20,000 nt of DNA, from IMG/VR virus record IMGVR_UViG_3300009788_000010; one strand, written 5' to 3'. The position numbers and the translations under genes are program-made. A model generated the notes under the pieces. The model was given only the letters and a program-made list of their open reading frames with translations. It ran no database searches and had not been told where the DNA came from. Shown in pieces: positions 3,113-16,988 of the stretch. The stretch comes from an uncultured virus (IMG/VR IMGVR_UViG_3300009788_000010). Taxonomy: Duplodnaviria > Heunggongvirae > Uroviricota > Caudoviricetes. Numbering within the stretch: the stretch's first letter is position 1; the number at the start of each line of letters is the position of its first letter.

Positions 3113-3477
3113 CCCCTTCTTCTCCGCGCCAGCGCCGCCAGCACCAACAGCAGCGGCAGCAACGCCCACTGGCCCGGCTCCGGTAGCGGCACGATCACGA
3201 TTGTATTCGATGGGGTGCTGACGCCCTGCTCGTTGTAGGCGGTGGCCATGACCGCCGTTGTCTCCCAGAAGCGTTCCAGGCAGAACACCTGATAGTACGT
3301 CTCACTGATCGCATCGTAGTCGCCGTAGGGCTGCTCCAGGCTGTAACTCGGCATCCCTACGTCTTCCACCTGTACGGCCCCGCTGGTCTGGCGGCTGAAC
3401 GACAGAACGAAGCCCTCGGCCTCGTCGCCGGGCTCGGAGGGGTCGTTCCAGTGGACGAGGATGGGCTTACACGTCAT
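3109..3477 (-). CDS. PEP-CTERM sorting-domain protein with FN3-like body
   Basis: C-terminus VPLPEPGQWALLPLLLVLAALARRRRG (PEP motif, TM helix, basic tail); TAYNEQGVSTPSN resembles the end of an FN3 domain; ATG at 3477 with GGAGG RBS. Confidence 0.8.
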   Translation of the reverse strand: MTCKPILVHWNDPSEPGDEAEGFVLSFSRQTSGAVQVEDVGMPSYSLEQPYGDYDAISETYYQVFCLERFWETTAVMATAYNEQGVSTPSNTIVIVPLPEPGQWALLPLLLVLAALARRRRG

Positions 3478-4854: not shown

Positions 4855-5213
4855 CCGGGCGGCGTTACGTCCGGACGCGTTCCGGACGGGGCACCAGGAG
4901 CCGACCTCGAGCGGCCCGGCCCGGGCGGAAAGCGCAGCGGTTACGCGGGGTTGGGGCGATTCGAGGACGGGGCGCAGCCCGACCCGGTCGGGTTTACGGG
5001 CGACGAGCCAGGGCCGGCCCCCCTGGCCAGAGCGGGCTCTGGCGCGAGCAGCGGCCCCCGCACCGGCGCGGGGCGACGCGGGCGCCCTAGAGGGTTCGCA
5101 CCCACCCCTCGCCGCCTGGCCTCGAGCGCCGGGCGCCCTGTCCGCGTCGGCCCGCGTCGGCTCGCGTCGGCCGCCCGAGCGCGAGCTGCGCGCCCGGCGG
5201 CGATGTGCCTGGT

Positions 5214-5382
5214 CCATGTCGATCCACGTCGATCTTCTAGGCGCGGCAGCCGGCCCTAGGAGCCTCGTTGGATCACGTCGATCCACGTCGATCCACGTCG
5301 CGGCCCCGAACGCGGGCAGCGCGCCCCGGAGCCCGTGTTGGCCCACGTAGATCCATGTCGATCCACGTCGATCGGCGTCGAT
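5214..5382. repeat. Nine copies of 10-mer CCAYGTCGAT in three clusters
   Basis: Copies start at 5214, 5224, 5273, 5283, 5293, 5343, 5353, 5363 and 5373 (some degenerate). Confidence 0.85.
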
Positions 5383-6310
5383 CGGGCGCCCGTCCCTCGC
5401 CGAGCGGCGCTCTTGGGAGAGCAGCGCGCCCCTCGTCGGCGCGGGGGCGGCTGCGCGCCCCGCGGATCGAGCGCCCCCCCCGTGCGTGCGCGCTTCCCGT
5501 CCGATCGTCCGAGGCTCGGCGCGCACACCCACCCCCAAAGGGAACGGGCTCTGGCGCGCCCAGGCCGCCCCGCGCTGGTTTGGGAGGCTCGCGGCGCCCC
5601 GCAGCGCGCACACCCACCCCACGCGCGCTCCATGTACGTCCGGGCCGCGTCGCGGCGCGCGACCCGGGCGCGACGCTCTCGAGAAGATGTGCCTGGCCCC
5701 GCGCGAGCGGCGATCCTAGCGTCCACCTTGGAACTCGGCCCTAGCGCGCCGAGGCGGCCCGGGAGGGCGCGCGCCCGAGGCCGGCCCGAACGGCCTCTGG
5801 GCGCCCGTCCTTGGAGCAGCGTGGCCGGCCATCTCCAAACGGGCCTCACGGCGCGACGCGGCGCCCCGCGGGGACGAATCGAGCCCCGGCGCGGGCGCTC
5901 GGGCAGCTTCGGCCGCCTCGAGCGGCGCGCCCCGGCACCAGAATCGGCGCCCGGCGCCTCGAGCCCAGGCCGCCCGGCCCCGGAAACGCGAGCCCCGCAC
6001 GAGCGCCCCTTCCCAATCCGGCCCCGGGAGGCCTTTGGAAGCGTCGCGGGGCCGAATCGACCGTCGGCGCGAGGGGAGGGGGCTCGACGCTCGAGGCCGG
6101 CCGCGTAACCCGACCAGTCGCGGCAGCGCGCCCTAGGGCCGGGGCGCGACGCCTGGGGCCGACAGCGCCTCCCGCGCCGGGCTCCGGCGCGGCCGCGGCG
6201 CGACCGAGGCCGCGAGAGCGCCCCGGAGCCTCGGCGGGCTCCCAACCGGGACGCGCGCCCGCGGCGGGCCGCCACACGTCCTGCGCGGGCAAGGCGCCGG
6301 GCCCTTCGGG

Positions 6311-6480
6311 CGATGTCGGCACGCGCGCAGCCGCTCCCAAACCTCTTGAAGATGTCAACGCGATGTCAAATCGACGGGGCGATGTCAAGCGACGTCGGGC
6401 GATGTCAAATTCGACGGGCCATGTCGGGGCGATGTCGGGCGATGTCGGATTCGACGGGCGATGTCGATTCGACGGCGGGC
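6311..6480. repeat. GATGTC repeats at 10-bp phase; degenerate 40-bp unit x3
   Basis: About 10 GATGTC-like copies. Segments 6361-6400, 6401-6440 and 6441-6480 align, each with GTC-N5/6-GAC. Confidence 0.8.
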
Positions 6481-6492
6481 GAGCAGGCGCGG

Positions 6493-8939: not shown

Positions 8940-9260
8940 TGGCCTCAGGGTGGCCGTCAGCCGGCCTCGAAAAAACCGATTAAACGCCTCCGGACGCGTC
9001 GCCGCGGCCTCTGGACGCGTTCCAAGCCAGGGTGGTGGTGGTGGTGGTCGCAGGCGTGAGCCTTATACGGGCTTTTTCGTCGGAGGAAAACGGGCCCCGG
9101 CGAATAATTCGTAGAGCGGATTATCAACACCACCACCACCACCTTCATTAAAGTGTATATATATATATTGTTTATTCTCTTATGATACGCGGGTTTACGA
9201 CTTTCCAATCCAAGGATTTCAAGCGAAATCAGGGTGGTGGTGCACGGAAAAGTGTCGGGG
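8940..9260. other. AT-rich ori-like region with GGT/ACC repeats
   Basis: (GGT)6 at 9031-9048, inverted (ACC)5 at 9129-9143, AT tract with TATATATATATA at about 9144-9187, (GGT)3 at 9233-9241. Confidence 0.5.
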
Positions 9261-9336
9261 CCGTTCTCCGCATGGGGGAACGCGGCTGCGCCGCTATCTC
9301 CCCAAAACCATACGGGGGTGCGCGAGGGGGCGGGCG

Positions 9337-9603
9337 TCACGCGCGCCTCGTCCCCGGATAGGACAATTCGTCGACGATCGTCGCCGCCTCAAGACCGTTC
9401 CTGCTCGAGAGAAGCAGTTTGGCGATGCGCTTCCGATCCTGCGCCAACGCGGACCGCTTGACGTTGGGAATGGACCGCACCTGGCCGGCGAGCCACTCGA
9501 ATTCCGAATCCGACGTCGCGCACCTTATCCGCCGGCTCGCCTCGACGGCGAGCAGCCTCTCGTTCCGCACGCGGTCGGTCTTGGTCAGTTTCATCTTCTT
9601 CAC
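9337..9603 (-). CDS. Hypothetical protein
   Basis: GTGA overlap; shares an N-terminal module with 11309-11725. Confidence 0.6.
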   Translation of the reverse strand: MKKMKLTKTDRVRNERLLAVEASRRIRCATSDSEFEWLAGQVRSIPNVKRSALAQDRKRIAKLLLSSRNGLEAATIVDELSYPGTRRA

Positions 9604-9806
9604 AGGCCCTTCTCCCTTTGTCGCTGCATCCATTCCCTCCGCCGCGCGGCCTGTTTCCTCGCTTGGCAGACGCGGCACCGCTTCGAGCGCCTGCCCGACT
9701 TCGGCCAGAACGGCGCGTCGCAGTCCTCGCACAGCGCCGTCCGCGGGTCGCCTGAATGGCGCGTGGCGAATAGGAGGAGCTGATTCGCTGCGTGTTTCAA
9801 TCTCAC
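9600..9806 (-). CDS. Small zinc-ribbon protein
   Basis: RBS GGAGGAG; CEDC...CRVC and a basic helix. Confidence 0.65.
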   Translation of the reverse strand: MRLKHAANQLLLFATRHSGDPRTALCEDCDAPFWPKSGRRSKRCRVCQARKQAARRREWMQRQREKGL

Positions 9807-9820
9807 GAATCAGCTCCTCC

Positions 9821-10104
9821 TCACCTTGCCTCGCCTTGCCGCGCCCAACCGGACCAGACCTCACCCCGCCTTGCCGCGCCATGCCAGACCTGGCCTAGCC
9901 ACTTAAAACCTTGATTTGAGCGCCTTGCCATGCCAGACCCAACCACAACATGCCTCGCCTCGCCTCACCCAGCCTCGCCAGACCGCGCCTTGCCTTGCCA
10001 TGCCCTGCCTTGCCCGGCCTTGTTCCATCAAACCAAACCTTGCCTCGCCAAACCTAACCTCGCCTCGCCAGACCCAACCCGGCCTCACCAGACCAAACCT
10101 CGCC
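9821..10104 (-). ncRNA. GGY-NN pentamer array, three blocks (candidate guide RNAs, VIPR-like)
   Basis: Minus strand: 15 pentamers (10104-10030), linker GATGGAACAA, 20 pentamers with one GTT variant (10019-9920), linker TCAAATCAAGGTTTTAAGT, 16 pentamers (9900-9821). GGY is constant and NN varies. The repeat is directly visible; the RNA function is inferred. Confidence 0.85.
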
Positions 10105-10109
10105 TCGAC

Positions 10110-10646
10110 TTACGTCTTCCAGTCAGTCACCATGGAGCGCCCGAACGGGCCTTTGCGTTCCGGCCTGAAGTCGAGCAGCCCGACGCGCGCACCCATGTCG
10201 TCGACTACGCGTCGAAGTTCCGTCTCCTTCAAGAGCAAGTCGTCGTACTCGACCGTGAACGAGATCTTCCATTCGTCGATCCGCGGCCGGTGCCGTACGA
10301 CCCGACCGCCCGTCGCCGGCATCACGACGGCGCGGGAGTCGATCACGTACTCGTTGACGCCGAGCGGGATCCTCTCCGGCGACACCATCACACAGGCGGC
10401 GAAGGGCTTTTGGAGCGACGCGCGGCCCTTGCCCTTCGAGTACGTCGCCGCGCCGATCAGCGCCCTGTGCACCGCGACGCCGGGAACGTAGAGCCCGCCG
10501 CTGTTGGTGAGGTCGCGGTGCGCCCTGATCTCGCACTGCTCCTCGGGCGTCTTTTTGTCGAGTCCCTCCACTGGCACCAGCGGGAACTTATTCATGAGGA
10601 GGGGCGAGATGCCTTTGATGGTCACTTCGACTTTTTTGATTGCCAT
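10110..10646 (-). CDS. Stand-alone RAMP/Cas7-like protein (VIPR-like effector)
   Basis: N-terminal beta strand + SPLLM; LYVPGVAVHRALIGAA (cf. RAMP YIPGSSLKGALR); RVVRHRP; C-terminal Gly-rich loop GARVGLLDFRP..GPFGR; RBS AAAGGAA. Confidence 0.8.
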   Translation of the reverse strand: MAIKKVEVTIKGISPLLMNKFPLVPVEGLDKKTPEEQCEIRAHRDLTNSGGLYVPGVAVHRALIGAATYSKGKGRASLQKPFAACVMVSPERIPLGVNEYVIDSRAVVMPATGGRVVRHRPRIDEWKISFTVEYDDLLLKETELRRVVDDMGARVGLLDFRPERKGPFGRSMVTDWKT

Positions 10647-10665
10647 GGCTTCCTTTTCCTTTCTG

Positions 10666-11070
10666 TTATCGTCGGTCGTTGCATTCGAATGTCTTGAAAA
10701 TCGGCAACACCCATTCGGGCGTATGCGAGCGAGCGAAGACGACGACGCCGCGGGGCTGGACGAGCGACTGGCGCGCCACCCGCTGCCGCAGCGAGATCAT
10801 TGTCCGGCCCGTCGTCCAAACGTCGTCCAACAGGACGGGCACGCCGCCGGGCGCGGAGCCCTCGCCGACGTAGAGCGCGAGGACGTAGAGCGACTGGCAG
10901 GTCGTCGCGGCCGGCAACGTGACCGGCCCGTAGCCCTCGCCGCGCCGCTCCAGTTCGACGCGGATAACCTTCGCGAGGCCGCGAAGGCTCGAGACGGGCA
11001 GGTCGTCGAGTTCGATCTTGAACGGCAGTTCGACGCCCGCGCTCGAGGTGAACGTTCCGTAGCGTATCAT
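10666..11070 (-). CDS. Type I phosphoribosyltransferase (OPRT-like)
   Basis: PRPP-binding loop VLLDDVWTTGRTM; N-terminal GTFTSSAG.ELPFKIE; ATGA overlap. Confidence 0.75.
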   Translation of the reverse strand: MIRYGTFTSSAGVELPFKIELDDLPVSSLRGLAKVIRVELERRGEGYGPVTLPAATTCQSLYVLALYVGEGSAPGGVPVLLDDVWTTGRTMISLRQRVARQSLVQPRGVVVFARSHTPEWVLPIFKTFECNDRR

Positions 11071-11312
11071 CGCCTTAGCCTCCTTATCAGCCTGTCCCGC
11101 TCGCGTTCGAACGAACGGGCCAGCGCCGCCGCCCTGTCCGCGTCCCTGCGGTCGTTTCTTATCCTGAACGGGATGAACGCCGACAGCGCGACGATCAACG
11201 CAGCGTAGAGCAGCGCCGTCGTCCAGTCGCGGAACCAGACGGCGAAGCCCATTCCGATCCCGACGACCGCGACCAAGACATATTCGACCACCATCATCTT
11301 GATCTTCTTCAT
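11067..11312 (-). CDS. Two-TM membrane protein
   Basis: MKKIKMMVVEYVLVAVVGIGMGFAVWF...LLYAALIVALSAFIPF plus a charged tail; ATGA overlap. Confidence 0.65.
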   Translation of the reverse strand: MKKIKMMVVEYVLVAVVGIGMGFAVWFRDWTTALLYAALIVALSAFIPFRIRNDRRDADRAAALARSFERERDRLIRRLRR

Positions 11313-11725
11313 GACAGCGCCTTCTTCCGCCCGACATGGGCCTCGTCCACGAATCCGTCCGTCATCCACGCCTCGACCGCCCGCTCCATCGCCTCCTCGA
11401 GCGTGTCGCCCGTCGCCTGGATGTAGACGCGGCCGCAGTCGGCGCGGTCGTGCTTCTCCTTGTCCTGCGGCAGGTAGTTGGAGATCCGCACGAGCCACGG
11501 CGGCCGCAGCTTCACGCGGTACGTGATCTGCGCCGTGCGCCCGATGTCGGTCAGCCATTCCTCCAACTCCGCCACGGTCTCTGCGAACCGGCCGCTGCGC
11601 GGCCTCGGCTTTGACAGGTCGCGGATTTTCTGCACGAGCCATTCGAACTCGGCCGTCGTCAGCGCGCCCTCGACCTCCCACCAGCTCTCTATCTCCAGGA
11701 GCCTCTTGTCCGTCGCCCTACTCAT
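11309..11725 (-). CDS. Hypothetical protein
   Basis: RBS GAGGGG; normal composition; coupled to its neighbours. Confidence 0.7.
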   Translation of the reverse strand: MSRATDKRLLEIESWWEVEGALTTAEFEWLVQKIRDLSKPRPRSGRFAETVAELEEWLTDIGRTAQITYRVKLRPPWLVRISNYLPQDKEKHDRADCGRVYIQATGDTLEEAMERAVEAWMTDGFVDEAHVGRKKALS

Positions 11726-11930
11726 CGTCCACCCCCTCGCACTCGTCGAGCAGCGACCACCACTGGTCGCATCGTATGGTCACGTCGCCGTGGAATCCCT
11801 TGCCGTCCCACAGGCCGCGCGTTTGAAGGCCCACCATCCAGCCGGCCTGCGAGCCCGAATAGTCCTGCGGCGGTATCGCGGGCGTCGGCTCCGGGCAGCC
11901 CTTCCCCTCGCACTCGTGAGACTTCCTCAT
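11718..11930 (-). CDS. Hypothetical protein
   Basis: ATGA overlap; 70 aa. Confidence 0.55.
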   Translation of the reverse strand: MRKSHECEGKGCPEPTPAIPPQDYSGSQAGWMVGLQTRGLWDGKGFHGDVTIRCDQWWSLLDECEGVDDE

Positions 11931-12154
11931 GCGTGCACCTTCAGCGCGTCGACGCCTTCGAGGATCTCCTTCGCGTCGCCGCCGCGGCGGACCAGGCCGC
12001 GGAACGCGGAGCGGCCCGCCCGCGTCGTCAGGCCGTCGCGTTGAAGGATCTCGAGGAGCGCCGGCTGCGCCGCGTCCTCGCGCTTGGACCGCCGACGCGC
12101 CCGCGCCGCGGCCTTGCTCCTCAGCTTGTTCCTACGGCTTTCCAAGTTCTTCAT
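11927..12154 (-). CDS. Small basic hypothetical protein
   Basis: RBS GGAGGT; 75 aa. Confidence 0.6.
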   Translation of the reverse strand: MKNLESRRNKLRSKAAARARRRSKREDAAQPALLEILQRDGLTTRAGRSAFRGLVRRGGDAKEILEGVDALKVHA

Positions 12155-13391: not shown

Positions 13392-13807
13392 TGCGTCTCC
13401 CTCTCTCCTTCGGTCGCGCGGCGTGCGTACGCCCTCGCCGAGAGCTGATCCGCCCACTTCACGCATTCGAGAAGCCGGCGGGCGTAATCGCGCTGCCACT
13501 CGTTCCCGTACTTGAGAACATACTCCAGCCCGCTCTCGATCGCCCGTATCGGGAGGAGCGCGTGCGGGTCCGCCTCCGAGGCGGCGTCGCCGTGCATCGC
13601 CATCAAGGCCGCCGTCAGCCCATTCGCCCTATAGGCGGACAGGACGCGCCAGTCGTCCGGCGTCTCCTGCCTCCGTTTCGCGGCGAGCCCCGCGGCCGTG
13701 CTCGAGGGCTCGAGGACGAACTCCTGTTGGACGCGGCCGTTGAAAAGAACGTGGACTAGCACCACGCGGTACAGGTCGCAGTTGAAGTAGCCCGCGTGAT
13801 CGGTCAT
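13388..13807 (-). CDS. Hypothetical protein
   Basis: RBS GGAGGAG, ATGA overlap. Confidence 0.7.
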   Translation of the reverse strand: MTDHAGYFNCDLYRVVLVHVLFNGRVQQEFVLEPSSTAAGLAAKRRQETPDDWRVLSAYRANGLTAALMAMHGDAASEADPHALLPIRAIESGLEYVLKYGNEWQRDYARRLLECVKWADQLSARAYARRATEGERETQ

Positions 13808-14430
13808 GATCGGTTCTCCTCCGCCAGTCTCGCAAGCCGAGGCAACGCACTCGCGTCCACCACGACCGCGCCGTCCTTGTCACGGCGGTTGACGTCGCGG
13901 TTCTTGCCGCGGATGGCGCGCTGGACAGCTTGGTCCAGCTTGTCCGTGTCGAGGCCGAAGTCCGCGAAGCCCCGCATGATGACCTTCAGGTACATGTCGC
14001 CCGGCGGAGCGACGCCGCCGCTGTTCATCTTGTAGAACAGCACGGGCTCGACCTTGCCGCCGCCCGTCTTGACGAGGAAGAACTCCTTGCGGTACAGCGT
14101 CGGCCAGCCCTCATACAGATCCAGCATTCGCTCGCACTGCGGCGTGATCGCGAAGAGGCCGCCCTCCACGCGGTCGCGATGGCAGACCTCGATGTCCGCG
14201 ACGCCGCGAAACGCCAGCCGCCAGTTCGGCAGCACGAGCCGTCCGACCGGCTCGGCGAGCGGGCAGCGTTGGCTCATGTGGTCCTTGTGGAGGTTGGAGC
14301 CGTACGCGAAGTAGAGCGCCCGCGGCAGTCCGTCCTCGCCGCGCAGCGTGTACCGCGGCTCGATGCCGCGCTCCGCGCTCGCCTTCGCGCGCATCCTCTT
14401 GAGGTGCGCCTTCCTGTTCTTCTTGCTCAT
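13804..14430 (-). CDS. Gamma-glutamylcyclotransferase (AIG2-like)
   Basis: LYFAYGSNL...MSQRCP, LAFRGVADI, LDLYEGWPTLY; TAATG overlap. Confidence 0.9.
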   Translation of the reverse strand: MSKKNRKAHLKRMRAKASAERGIEPRYTLRGEDGLPRALYFAYGSNLHKDHMSQRCPLAEPVGRLVLPNWRLAFRGVADIEVCHRDRVEGGLFAITPQCERMLDLYEGWPTLYRKEFFLVKTGGGKVEPVLFYKMNSGGVAPPGDMYLKVIMRGFADFGLDTDKLDQAVQRAIRGKNRDVNRRDKDGAVVVDASALPRLARLAEENRS

Positions 14431-14729
14431 TACGCCTTGTCCCCTTCCGCGTCGCCGCGGTGTTCGGCCAGTTGCATCAGAATCTCGACGAGCGACGCGC
14501 CCGTCCAGCACTCTTCGTCCTCCGCCCAGAGATCGCCCGCCTCCCAGACCGCGAGCGTCTGCTCGACCGTCAGGGGCTCGCTCGCGACGAGCCAAACGAT
14601 CGAGTCCACTTCGTCCTGCGGCACCGCGTGGATGTGCGTGCCCGCGGCGCTGACGGCGTTCTGCACGTCGCGCGCGTCCATGCAGCCCTTCCAGTCGCAG
14701 CTTACCATCGCGATCTTGAGTTCGCTCAT
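14430..14729 (-). CDS. Acidic hypothetical protein
   Basis: RBS AAGGAG before MSELKIAMVSCDWK. Confidence 0.65.
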   Translation of the reverse strand: MSELKIAMVSCDWKGCMDARDVQNAVSAAGTHIHAVPQDEVDSIVWLVASEPLTVEQTLAVWEAGDLWAEDEECWTGASLVEILMQLAEHRGDAEGDKA

Positions 14730-15522: not shown

Positions 15523-16602
15523 TCACATCGCCGACGCTGCCGCCGCGCGCGTGCGGGCGGAAGCGGTCTGCGTGACAAAGTGCTCCGAGCGAAGCACGAA
15601 ATAGTCGCGCGTATCGGCGTCCAAGCCTGTCCATTCCAGCAAGCCTTCCAGCGTGTAGTTCGTGGGCGCCACTTCCGCGACGCACTTCTCAAAGAGCGCC
15701 ATCAGCAGCTTGACCCAATTAACAACCTTCGTCTCGTTGACCGTGCCGGCGTGATGCCGGAACTCGATCGTGCCGTGCCGCATGAACGACTGCACGTTGA
15801 CTTTGACGAAGCGGTTCGTGAGCCGCTGCCGCAGCCCGGAAATCGTGTCCACGCCGGCGAGCCGGCTTTCAAGGTTGGAACCCGCTCCGCGGCAGTAGGT
15901 GTTCTCGCTTCCGCGGCGGCTGCGGGGCATAAAACCGTCGATCGTCCTCTCGTACTTCGCGTACTCGACCACAATCCGCTTGAAGGCGGCGGCGCTGATG
16001 TCGCGCGCTCCGATGTGGACATGGATTCCGCAGGAGCGGTTGACTTGCGCTCCCGCGTCTTCGAGAGCGCGGAGCGCCTTCGCCAACTCCAGCATACCGG
16101 CGTCGCCGCTAAGGATGGGCGACACGACTTCGCACGAACCGCCCGCTCCGCTTACGCTTGAGTCCGTCACGACCTTCCAGTGGTTCCGCTGCCGGTGGTT
16201 GTAGCCTTCATAAATGGCTTGGACGCCGGCGGTCGAGAGAACGTCGGCGGCACGCTGCCCGCGCATCCCGACGATTTCGATCTCGACGCCGAACGTACGG
16301 CCCTGCCGTGCGCGCGCGGTCGCGGCGCGGGCCGTTGCCCGCCGCACCCTCGCCCGCGCCGGCTGCGCGATGCCGTGGCAAGTCATTGCCGCGGCTGCGC
16401 CGACGCCCATAAGCTGGATGCGCCAAACCGCACGACATTGCGTGCACGTGCGGCGGCTGCGGCCGTGCTGGTACTGAACGTAGAGCGGGTATCCGCAGGA
16501 GCAGCGAAGCCGGAATGAATTCTGAGCGTGGCCTTCGCGCGCGATCAAAGTCGCTTCGCGCTGCGTCCCATGCGGGGGAGCGGAAGCGGTTCCAGTCGGC
16601 AT
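15523..16602 (-). CDS. Amidoligase family (COOH-NH2 ligase) with N-terminal zinc ribbon
   Basis: TFGVEIE, WKVVTDSSV, EVVSPIL, NRSCGIHVHIG, HGTIEFRHHAGT; ATG at 16602 with RBS GGGAGG; N-terminal CSC...CTQC. Confidence 0.9.
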   Translation of the reverse strand: MPTGTASAPPHGTQREATLIAREGHAQNSFRLRCSCGYPLYVQYQHGRSRRTCTQCRAVWRIQLMGVGAAAAMTCHGIAQPARARVRRATARAATARARQGRTFGVEIEIVGMRGQRAADVLSTAGVQAIYEGYNHRQRNHWKVVTDSSVSGAGGSCEVVSPILSGDAGMLELAKALRALEDAGAQVNRSCGIHVHIGARDISAAAFKRIVVEYAKYERTIDGFMPRSRRGSENTYCRGAGSNLESRLAGVDTISGLRQRLTNRFVKVNVQSFMRHGTIEFRHHAGTVNETKVVNWVKLLMALFEKCVAEVAPTNYTLEGLLEWTGLDADTRDYFVLRSEHFVTQTASARTRAAAASAM

Positions 16603-16627
16603 TCTCTTTCCTCCCAAACGACAATGG

Positions 16628-16988
16628 AAGCATACCCCACTTATCGGCGCGCCGACACCCTTAGTTGAGAAAAAAATGCGCGCTGGGAGAAAAAAGTTGG
16701 GGCCCCAGAACGCGCTGTGCGGCCTTTTCTCCGGCTCCCGGATGGCAGCGCCAAGGCCTTGAGGAGAAGTCGCGGCACAGGCCGTCCTTGGATTGGGCCA
16801 CTTCCCCTTTGGATCCAAATACTTGGGGCCGGAGTTGCGAGTACGTCCAGCGCGGCGCGCTGTGGGGGCGCCTCTTGGGCCGCGCGGGCGCCCCGCTGGG
16901 GCTCCGCGCGACGCGGCTGCGCCCCCAACTTTTTTCCAAAAAAAAGGCTAAGTTTTGGGTGGCGAAAGGCCGATATTGGGGTATGCTT
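16628..16988. promoter_or_regulatory. Mirror-symmetric divergent promoters
   Basis: TGGGGTATGCTT on both strands (16628-16639 minus, 16977-16988 plus); CCCCAACTTTTTTC on both strands (16689-16702 minus, 16923-16936 plus). Confidence 0.7.

What the first reader, a model, noticed from the sequence alone, without database searches (positions are those of the whole stretch)
10030..10104. Block 1 NN string reads as a tyrosine-integrase-like peptide when every third base is skipped
Seen: NN = GA TT CT GA CG TG CT GA GA TA TT GA AA TT TT. As codon positions 1-2, the first ten give [ED][FL]L[ED]R[WC]L[ED][ED]Y, compatible with EFLERWLEDY, which resembles the start of the core-binding domain of many phage integrases. 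Inference: the guide targets another element's integrase gene in codon register, ignoring wobble positions and resisting synonymous escape. The decoding is degenerate and was recognised by eye.
Basis: inference. Interest (0 to 1): 0.85.

Follow-up and report, generated by a model that had tools for sequence, protein, structure and literature searches.

The report
VIPR guide RNA aimed at integrases
This stretch is one guide of a phage-borne VIPR system, a recently described relative of CRISPR, and its first ten two-base "letters" spell, in codon register, a motif found at the start of the DNA-binding domain of phage integrases, so the phage probably uses it to silence a rival element's integrase gene.

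Summary
They belong to about 50 pentamers (9821-10104) directly after a 178-aa gene (10110-10646).

That gene is a Vipr protein: a RAMP/Cas7-like fold and a sequence match to the solved SUSP1 Vipr protein. GGYNN arrays flank its homologues in 39 of 39 viral loci. The locus is therefore a VIPR system, described in 2026 preprints, whose vrRNAs read DNA as NNxNNx with the skipped base usually at the wobble position.

The integrase reading holds for units 1-10. Three of 5 exact database matches lie in frame at the start of the Phage_int_SAM_3 domain of tyrosine integrases. In 80 integrase loci chosen by their catalytic domain alone, 10 match at 16 or more of 20 bases. Shuffled guides gave a mean of 0.2, and 0 of 300 reached 10. 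Only the 1-nt skip gives this signal.

Units 11-15 match at chance level. No full-length target of 80% or more was found. Expression and binding are untested.

Verdict: a real feature and a new member of a known kind.

The parts
10110..10646 (-). vipr gene (178 aa, protein P0121): a RAMP/Cas7-like protein that binds the GGY part of each repeat
   Evidence: ORF and translation. phrog_4652, full length, E 4.3e-17. A profile of 30 homologues hits PDB 36pp_D 'SUSP1 Vipr protein' at E 4.9e-8; the single sequence gives E 0.002. AF2 model has pLDDT 86.9. Top Foldseek matches are Csm3/Cas7 of type III and type VII CRISPR complexes. R120, D159, F160 and R161 align with SUSP1 R138, D177, W178 and R179.
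10030..10104 (-). vrRNA repeat block 1 (the finding): 15 GGYNN units. Units 1-10 (10055-10104) read as [DE]FL[DE]RWL[DE][DE]Y. Units 11-15 (10030-10054) have no matching target.
   Evidence: sequence; target tests.
10020..10029 (-). Two degenerate in-register units (GATGG AACAA). With the two GGTTT units before them they form an A+T-rich stretch of about 20 nt that may separate two vrRNAs.
   Evidence: register kept across the gap. The role as separator is inference, by analogy with the A+T-rich spacers seen in related loci.
9950..10019 (-). vrRNA repeat block 2: 14 GGYNN units
   Evidence: No target found.
9920..9949 (-). One degenerate unit (GTTGT) followed by 5 GGYNN units, in register with block 2
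9901..9919 (-). A+T-rich 19-nt separator between repeat blocks; the register shifts here
9821..9900 (-). vrRNA repeat block 3: 16 GGYNN units. The last five NN are GC AA GA AA GA, the purine-rich ending typical of this clade.
   Evidence: No target found.
9772..9821 (-). 17-bp hairpin closing the array. It is either a 3' structure of the last vrRNA or a terminator without a U-tract.
   Evidence: -40.7 kcal/mol, z -6.48, 0 of 200 shuffles fold as well. One search found no canonical terminator here.
9600..9806 (-). Small zinc-ribbon-like ORF (68 aa, two CxxC) just after the array. It may be an accessory gene, but it is not shown to belong to the system.
   Evidence: weak DksA-like / zinc-binding hits only; a comparable CxxC ORF follows the array in 5 of 33 loci with an ORF there; no sequence homologue in 0 of 39 related loci.

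Best explanation
The window holds a phage-borne VIPR (Viral Interference Programmable Repeat) module. It consists of a vipr gene (10110-10646, minus strand) followed on the same strand by an array of GGYNN repeats (9821-10104) that ends in a hairpin.

From the published work on SUSP1 VIPR, the array is transcribed into vrRNAs. One Vipr protomer binds each repeat and sequesters the GGY. The NN pairs are then presented to base-pair with double-stranded DNA that reads NNxNNx. Binding blocks transcription.

Block 1 is one such guide. Its units 1-10 read GAxTTxCTxGAxCGxTGxCTxGAxGAxTA. This is the codon-position-1-and-2 spelling of [DE]FL[DE]RWL[DE][DE]Y at the start of the core-binding (SAM-like) domain of a subfamily of tyrosine integrases. 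The most likely function is to silence the integrase of a competing temperate phage, prophage or satellite, in a way that synonymous changes cannot escape.

Shown here: the anatomy, family membership, the conserved gene-array association, the in-frame integrase matches, their excess over controls, and the 1-nt skip. Taken from the literature: filament assembly, triplex/R-loop binding and silencing. Inferred: that this guide is expressed, that 10 matched units suffice, and that the 3' units 11-15 act as a handle or spacer rather than as guide.
For: Family membership:
- A profile of 30 homologues matches PDB 36pp_D 'SUSP1 Vipr protein' (E 4.9e-8).
- The alignment puts R120, D159, F160 and R161 opposite SUSP1 R138, D177, W178 and R179. 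These are the residues the cryo-EM preprint names as reading G2, G1, G2 and Y3 (10.64898/2026.04.26.720927, section 5 read).
- R120, F160 and R161 are invariant and D159 nearly invariant in 30 homologues.
- The AF2 model (pLDDT 86.9) matches Csm3/Cas7 subunits first.

Gene-array association:
- 39 of 39 viral loci with a homologue carry GGYNN runs next to the gene on its strand, at G+C from 37% to 70%.
- 34 of 39 have a run of 9 or more units, against none of 6 or more in 271 kb of control DNA.

Target:
- The 20-base pattern of units 1-10 has 3 exact matches in metagenome contigs and 2 in genome contigs.
- L042, L043 and L045 are tyrosine integrases hit in frame 1-3 residues into Phage_int_SAM_3 (EFLERWLEDY, DFLERWLEDY, DFLDRWLEDY).
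- In 401 genomes at 2 or fewer mismatches there were 10 hits, including the seed genome, against 5 for the built-in reversed control. Of the 9 new hits, 2 are confirmed integrases in frame (L050, L051) and 1 looks like one but has no Pfam hit (L048).
- In 80 integrase loci selected only through catalytic-domain peptides, 10 loci score 16 or more of 20. Shuffled unit orders gave a mean of 0.20 and a maximum of 3, and 0 of 300 reached 10.
- 14 of the 15 loci scoring 15 or more are hit at the same in-frame site.
- Sites scoring 16 or more of 20 numbered 0, 11, 0 and 1 for skips of 0, 1, 2 and 3 bases.
- None of 591 ten-unit windows from other VIPR arrays reaches more than 5 loci, and 472 reach none.

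Self-targeting: none in the window. The full guide's best score is 18 of 30 and 114 of 200 shuffles do as well. Units 1-10 score at best 13 of 20.
Against: - Units 11-15 match only 1-4 of 10 bases in every hit, which is chance level.
- Full-length NN match is therefore 20-23 of 30 (67-77%), below the 80% cut-off the discovery preprint used for natural targets.
- IMG/VR viral contigs hold no exact match to units 1-10.
- Two of the 5 exact matches are unrelated genes: a beta-eliminating lyase on the other strand and a TPP enzyme in frame.
- Two near matches fall in frame in TsaE, so acidic/leucine-rich motifs of other families come close.
- The other guides of this array (blocks 2 and 3) do not hit the contigs that carry the matching integrases. 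There is no convergence on one element of the kind reported for SUSP1.
- The targeted ten residues are not an especially conserved part of the integrase (rank 111 of 196 N-terminal windows).
- No conserved accessory gene was found.
- vrRNA boundaries are unknown. The host and the rest of the phage genome were not available.
Confidence: 0.72

Rival explanations
1. The integrase reading is a coincidence. The array is a VIPR guide, but the resemblance of ten degenerate codons to an integrase motif is pareidolia and the real target is something else or unknown.
For: The decoding is degenerate. Units 11-15 do not match. Total exact hits (5) are near the number expected by chance for 20 fixed bases in databases of this size (my estimate, not computed by a tool). 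TsaE and a TPP enzyme are also hit in frame. There was no hit in IMG/VR.
Against: Three of 5 exact hits fall at the same in-frame position of homologous integrase domains. 0 of 300 shuffled guides and 0 of 591 natural guide windows from other VIPR loci reach the observed 10 of 80 integrase loci. Only the published 1-nt skip gives the signal.
Confidence: 0.07
2. The guide acts on the phage's own integrase or lysogeny module, as autoregulation of its own life cycle rather than attack on a rival.
For: Some related VIPR phages appear temperate: integrase-like ORFs lie just downstream of the module in L013 and L019 (judged by eye, not tested with Pfam). Only 20 kb of a contig that may be about 65 kb long (P0001) could be examined.
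Against: No site in the window scores above 13 of 20 for units 1-10 or above shuffles for the full guide. No integrase was found among the 36 minus-strand ORFs scanned; plus-strand ORFs were not scanned. The discovery preprint reports no self-targeting at 80% or more in the clades it analysed (section 27 read).
Confidence: 0.08
3. Block 1 is a guide whose true target matches all 15 units and is absent from the searched collections. The ten-unit integrase match would then be a relic or a relative of that target, for example a diverged integrase whose following residues read [FL][DE][KN][FL][FL].
For: Collection scans accept exact matches only, so any target with a mismatch inside units 1-10 was invisible. 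Published vrRNAs carry 9-16 repeats, so 15 guide units are possible.
Against: The residues after WL[DE]DY in 79 aligned integrases are A-K-x-N, not [FL][DE][KN]. In this clade the last 3-4 units of arrays are compositionally constrained: AA, AG or GA in 39 to 45 of 67 runs at each of the last three units, against 35% overall. This suggests 3' units are not free guide positions. A published SUSP1 guide footprint on its recombinase is only six units (10.64898/2026.10.15.759431, section 6 read).
Confidence: 0.1
4. The repeats are not guides at all. They could instead be a periodic protein-binding RNA or DNA scaffold, a decoy that titrates another phage's Vipr, or G-rich structural DNA.
For: Expression is untested: no RNA run is listed. 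Satellites are reported to carry decoy vrRNAs (10.64898/2026.10.15.759431, abstract and discussion read).
Against: The array sits beside its own vipr gene in 39 of 39 loci, on the same strand. The NN are highly variable (3.83 bits of a possible 4) while GGY is fixed, as expected for programmable positions. The in-frame integrase signal has no explanation under a pure scaffold model.
Confidence: 0.03

Closest known systems
SUSP1 / Pseudomonas fulva prophage VIPR systems (type II VIPR; bioRxiv 10.64898/2026.04.26.720920 and 10.64898/2026.04.26.720927)
   Same: A Vipr RAMP protein with the same GGY-reading residues (R, D, aromatic, R). Tandem GGYNN repeats beside the gene on its strand. Variable NN. 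A 1-nt skip with the skipped base at the wobble position. Phage-borne. No self-target.
   Different: Sequence similarity to SUSP1 Vipr is detectable only over the C-terminal half (E 4.9e-8 with a profile), and the protein is 178 aa against 202 aa. W178 is replaced by F160. No conserved accessory (vap) gene was found next to it in 39 loci. No ~40-nt conserved tail follows each block: the blocks are joined in register by one or two degenerate units or by short A+T-rich spacers, and only the last block ends in a hairpin.
SUSP1 vrRNA4 targeting the excision recombinase of F5 satellites (bioRxiv 10.64898/2026.10.15.759431)
   Same: A guide that reads codon positions 1-2 of a recombinase gene of another mobile element and skips the wobble base, so synonymous escape is blocked. 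In both cases only part of the repeat tract matches the target: six units there, ten here.
   Different: There the target was shown experimentally and lies at active-site residues 79-84. Here the target is predicted only, and it lies at the start of the core-binding (SAM-like) domain of tyrosine integrases, a region of average conservation. The targeted element and the host are unknown.
Class 1 CRISPR backbone subunits (Cas7/Csm3/Cmr4) with crRNA
   Same: An RRM/RAMP fold with thumb and glycine-rich loop. One protomer per fixed number of guide nucleotides, forming a helical filament. Best structural matches are Csm3 of type III-A and Cas7 of type VII.
   Different: The period is 5 nt with 3 sequestered bases, instead of 6 nt with 1 flipped base. 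There is no repeat-spacer CRISPR array and no cas genes nearby. The guide is non-contiguous. This is not a CRISPR-Cas system.

Membership tests
VIPR system | Vipr protein: a minimal RAMP (RRM core, G-loop, thumb) homologous to characterised Vipr | tested here: met
   Profile hit to PDB 36pp_D 'SUSP1 Vipr protein' at E 4.9e-8; single sequence E 0.002. AF2 model pLDDT 86.9. Top Foldseek hits are Csm3/Cas7.
VIPR system | Residues that read GGY (SUSP1 R138, D177, W178, R179) | tested here: met
   One search aligns R120, D159, F160 and R161 to them, with W replaced by the aromatic F. R120, F160 and R161 are invariant and D159 nearly invariant in 30 homologues. The N-terminal residue H17 is not covered by the alignment. 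The window protein has N where the family consensus has H19.
VIPR system | Tandem GG[C/T]NN repeats (4 or more units) flanking vipr on the same strand | tested here: met
   50 perfect units in 4 runs directly after the stop codon. 39 of 39 related loci carry such runs. Background control.
VIPR system | GGY conserved, NN hypervariable | tested here: met
   NN entropy is 3.83 bits over 67 runs of 9 or more units from related loci. The last 3-4 units are less variable, at 2.8-3.25 bits.
VIPR system | Invariable structured 3' tail after each repeat tract (type II: about 40 nt, pseudoknot) | tested here: inconclusive
   Block 1 is followed by two degenerate units only. A 19-nt A+T-rich spacer precedes block 3. 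A 17-bp hairpin follows block 3. Some relatives (L005) have a repeated ~37-nt tail. The preprint describes staggered arrays without long tails (legend of fig. S18 read). Rfam gave no hammerhead or other family here.
VIPR system | Accessory vap gene next to vipr | tested here: not met
   None of nine neighbouring window ORFs has a homologue in any of 39 related loci (tblastn E <= 1e-3). A small CxxC ORF follows the array in 5 of 33 loci. The preprint says loci 'typically' have a vap, so this is not an absolute requirement.
VIPR system | Target recognised by the 1-nt skip rule, skipped base mostly at the wobble position | tested here: met
   Sites scoring 16 or more of 20 in 80 integrase loci: 0, 11, 0 and 1 for skips of 0, 1, 2 and 3. 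Hits are in frame with NN at codon positions 1-2.
VIPR system | Natural target with at least 80% NN match over the whole guide (criterion of the discovery preprint) | tested here: not met
   The best hits reach 23 of 30 (77%) over 15 units, but 20 of 20 over units 1-10. The collection scans could find exact seed matches only.
VIPR system | No self-targeting | tested here: met
   Within the 20-kb window only. The rest of the genome was not available.
VIPR system | vrRNA is expressed and co-purifies with Vipr; NN reprogramming redirects silencing | not testable with these tools
   Only one DNA run holds the stretch and no RNA holder is listed.
CRISPR-Cas (type III/VII backbone) | Repeat-spacer CRISPR array and cas operon | tested here: not met
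   There are no direct repeats with spacers: the period is 5 nt. No cas families appear among 36 ORFs. The fold similarity to Csm3 reflects shared RAMP ancestry, not membership.

The most novel reading that the evidence does not exclude
In this clade VIPR is a bare two-part module: vipr plus in-register, tail-less repeat tracts, with no accessory gene. Block 1 would then be a family-level guide. By spelling codon positions 1-2 of a core-binding-domain motif, one ten-unit guide could silence the integrases of many unrelated temperate elements at once. About 1 in 8 of the sampled subfamily match at 80% or more. The purine-rich 3' units would serve as a built-in handle. That would make it a broad anti-lysogeny or anti-satellite weapon rather than a guide against one specific rival.
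Probability: 0.3. Interest if true: 0.6.

Novelty: new member of a known kind. Interest (0 to 1): 0.45.

Why it matters
VIPR was described only in 2026, and its biology rests on Escherichia and Pseudomonas phages. This locus comes from a distant Vipr clade, with more than 1,200 homologues in metagenomes, in a 69% G+C environmental phage.

It shows on independent data that the 1-nt skip rule and codon-register targeting of a recombinase gene also hold there. This supports the view that immobilising rivals through their integrases is a general use of VIPR.

It also points to variations worth testing: no accessory gene, in-register arrays without long tails, constrained 3' units, and a match that covers only ten of fifteen units.

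It does not reveal a new kind of system.

Tried and rejected
- Rfam (E-value mode) on 9000-11000 gave only sub-threshold microRNA-like hits on the hairpin and no hammerhead.
- blastn of 9000-12000 against phage records gave no match.
- Before finding the literature I considered several other readings: a TRAP-like ring-binding RNA, a G-quadruplex, a packaging or terminal repeat, a centromere-like protein array, and a translated pentapeptide repeat. I dropped them once the protein proved to be a Vipr homologue.
- Exact scans of viral contigs found nothing for units 1-10 of block 1, block 3 or block 2.
- Blocks 2, 2b and 3 were scanned against the integrase-bearing loci and contigs and scored no better than shuffles.
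- A search of the 'class' of the matching genome covered only 11 genomes and added nothing.
- Guides of other VIPR loci do not hit the integrase set above shuffles.
- The idea that the guide sits on the most conserved integrase motif was tested and not supported (rank 111 of 196).
- The search for a conserved accessory gene was negative.
- Sequencing runs: no RNA holder is listed and only one DNA run holds the stretch. No reads were laid.
- Complex prediction, the Atlas search and the representative-protein search were not used.

Full report
**1. What is in the sequence**

Read on the minus strand, the stop codon of a 178-aa ORF (10110-10646) is followed at once by GG[C/T]NN pentamers. Two degenerate in-register units follow, then 14 units (10019..9950), one degenerate unit, 5 units (9944..9920), a 19-nt A+T-rich spacer, and 16 units (9900..9821).

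A 17-bp hairpin closes the array at 9772-9821 (-40.7 kcal/mol, z -6.5).

The NN string of Block 1 is exactly the one reported: GA TT CT GA CG TG CT GA GA TA TT GA AA TT TT.

The rest of the 20 kb (68.8% G+C) holds a single other run of four units.

**2. What the neighbouring gene is**

- The ORF matches phrog_4652 (function unknown) over its full length and has no Pfam family.
- It has 1,201 homologues at E <= 1e-3 among 1,289 candidates, mostly 175-180 aa and about 65% identical.
- A profile of 30 of them hits one solved structure, 36pp_D 'SUSP1 Vipr protein' (E 4.9e-8). The single sequence gives E 0.002.
- The AlphaFold model (pLDDT 86.9, pTM 0.81) matches Csm3/Cas7 backbone subunits of type III and type VII CRISPR complexes first (E about 1e-6 to 1e-5, TM about 0.5-0.65).

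**3. The literature**

A full-text search found three 2026 preprints on VIPR systems. I read the following parts:

- Discovery paper (10.64898/2026.04.26.720920): outline, Results, and Methods sections 20, 26 and 27, plus passages.
- Cryo-EM paper (10.64898/2026.04.26.720927): outline and section 5.
- Satellite paper (10.64898/2026.10.15.759431): outline and sections 6, 9 and 17.

They report the following:

- Phage-encoded Vipr, a minimal RAMP, polymerises one protomer per GGYNN repeat of a vrRNA.
- It sequesters GGY and presents the NN pairs.
- The NN pairs recognise double-stranded DNA of the form NNxNNx (the 1-nt skip rule), and the skipped base usually falls on the codon wobble position.
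- Targets are rival phages, prophages and satellites.
- SUSP1 silences a satellite's excision recombinase in codon register.

The residues named as reading GGY in SUSP1 (R138, D177, W178, R179) align with R120, D159, F160 and R161 of the window protein. These are invariant or nearly invariant in the family.

**4. The gene-array association is conserved**

In 39 of 39 IMG/VR loci that encode a homologue (55-70% identity for most, G+C 37-70%), GGYNN runs lie directly upstream and/or downstream of the gene, on its strand. 34 of 39 loci have a run of 9 or more units.

Control DNA of 271 kb had 4 runs of 4 or more units and none of 6 or more.

Nothing else is conserved around the gene. Nine neighbouring window ORFs have no homologue in any of the 39 loci. 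A small CxxC ORF follows the array in only 5 of 33 loci.

**5. The integrase claim: database matches**

| Collection | Exact matches |
|---|---|
| Viral contigs | 0 |
| Metagenome contigs | 3 |
| Genome contigs | 2 |

Three of the five (L042, L043, L045) are tyrosine integrases. They carry Phage_integrase plus Phage_int_SAM_3, and two also have an Arm DNA-binding domain. Each is hit in frame 1-3 residues into the SAM-like core-binding domain, reading EFLERWLEDY, DFLERWLEDY and DFLDRWLEDY.

The other two look like chance hits: a beta-eliminating lyase on the opposite strand and a TPP enzyme.

A sample of 401 genomes from the phylum of the L045 genome was searched at 2 or fewer mismatches. The pattern hit 10 genomes including the seed, and the built-in reversed control hit 5. 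The nine new hits break down as follows:

- 2 are confirmed integrases in frame (L050, L051).
- 1 is integrase-like but has no Pfam hit (L048).
- 2 are TsaE in frame.
- 4 are other sequences.

**6. The integrase claim: controls**

I collected 80 integrase loci from viral contigs using only catalytic-domain peptides, so the selection is blind to the N-terminal motif.

- Units 1-10 score 16 or more of 20 in 10 loci and 15 or more in 15 loci.
- 14 of those 15 are hit at the same in-frame position.
- 300 shuffles of unit order gave means of 0.20 and 1.88 loci, and none reached the observed counts.
- With skips of 0, 1, 2 and 3 bases, sites scoring 16 or more of 20 number 0, 11, 0 and 1. This independently recovers the 1-nt skip rule in this distant clade.
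- Among 591 ten-unit windows cut from 62 arrays of other VIPR loci, none reaches more than 5 loci and 472 reach none.

**7. What does not fit**

- Units 11-15 (TT GA AA TT TT) match 1-4 of 10 bases in every hit, which is chance level.
- The whole 15-unit guide therefore reaches at most 23 of 30. This is under the 80% threshold the preprint used.
- Blocks 2 and 3 hit neither the integrase contigs nor viral contigs.
- The targeted ten residues are only averagely conserved in the integrase family.

There is a partial explanation from comparative anatomy. In this clade the last three or four units of arrays are compositionally constrained. NN is AA, AG or GA in 39 to 45 of 67 runs at each of the last three positions, against 35% overall, and entropy is 2.8-3.25 bits against 3.83. 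Blocks are separated by A+T-rich stretches.

Units 12-13 of Block 1 are GA AA. The following GGTTT GGTTT GATGG AACAA is an A+T-rich 20-mer in a 69% G+C genome. I infer that the free guide is about units 1-11 and the rest is handle or spacer. This is not shown. A published SUSP1 guide footprint on its recombinase is likewise only six units.

**8. Verdict**

The feature is real and functional-looking, and it belongs to a known, very recently described kind of system.

Open points are the guide's 3' boundary, the identity of the rival element, expression and binding.

Supplementary data S3/S4 of the discovery preprint (targets, type assignment) could not be read and may already cover this clade.

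Noticed in passing
window 5213-5397 and 6360-6482: Two other intergenic-looking tandem repeat arrays with a 10-nt sub-period: consensus CCACGTCGAT inside a 70-nt unit, and GGGCGATGTCG inside 19/40-nt units. They are unrelated to GGYNN. Their function is unknown.
   Followed up: no
window 15523-16818 (-) and 13804-14595 (-): An Amidoligase_2 protein (E 9e-38) and a gamma-glutamyl cyclotransferase-like protein (GGACT, E 1.3e-7) lie close together. From recall, this is a pairing known from phage genomes. Most other ORFs have no family.
   Followed up: no
related loci L002-L040, 3' ends of arrays: The last 3-4 repeat units of arrays in this Vipr clade are biased to NN = AA, AG or GA, and many arrays end in ...GGCAA GGCAG GGA. 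This suggests a built-in handle made of repeat units.
   Followed up: partly
related loci, e.g. L002, L014, L017, L036; window 9945-9949 and 10020-10029: Arrays are punctuated every 5-12 units by single in-register units with one mismatch to GGY (AGYNN, TGYNN, GTYNN). These may be vrRNA boundaries of the 'staggered array' kind mentioned in the preprint.
   Followed up: no
L005 3044-3296: Three repeat tracts are separated by a nearly identical ~37-nt A+T-rich tail. This is a tail-bearing architecture within the same Vipr clade as the tail-less window array.
   Followed up: no
L034 array at 3173, units 11-20: A guide window of another VIPR phage matches 17 of 20 in frame on KGEILALKWK, in the catalytic-domain box of an integrase (L094). 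It scores 15 of 20 on the same motif in L101 and L103. The score alone is within the range of shuffles.
   Followed up: partly
L013 from 2594 and L019 from 3246: The ORFs directly downstream of the VIPR module look like integrases by eye. This was not tested with Pfam. It suggests that some VIPR phages of this clade are temperate.
   Followed up: no
L049 1501-1529 and L054 (minus strand): Units 1-10 come within two mismatches, in frame, of a conserved TsaE motif ([ED]FLELGLEEY) in two genomes. I read this as near-miss noise, but it is the only other family hit twice.
   Followed up: partly
window 10647-10665: Unlike most related loci, the window has no repeat array upstream of vipr. The upstream ORF (10666-11337) ends 19 nt before the vipr start, so vipr is probably co-transcribed with it.
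   Followed up: no
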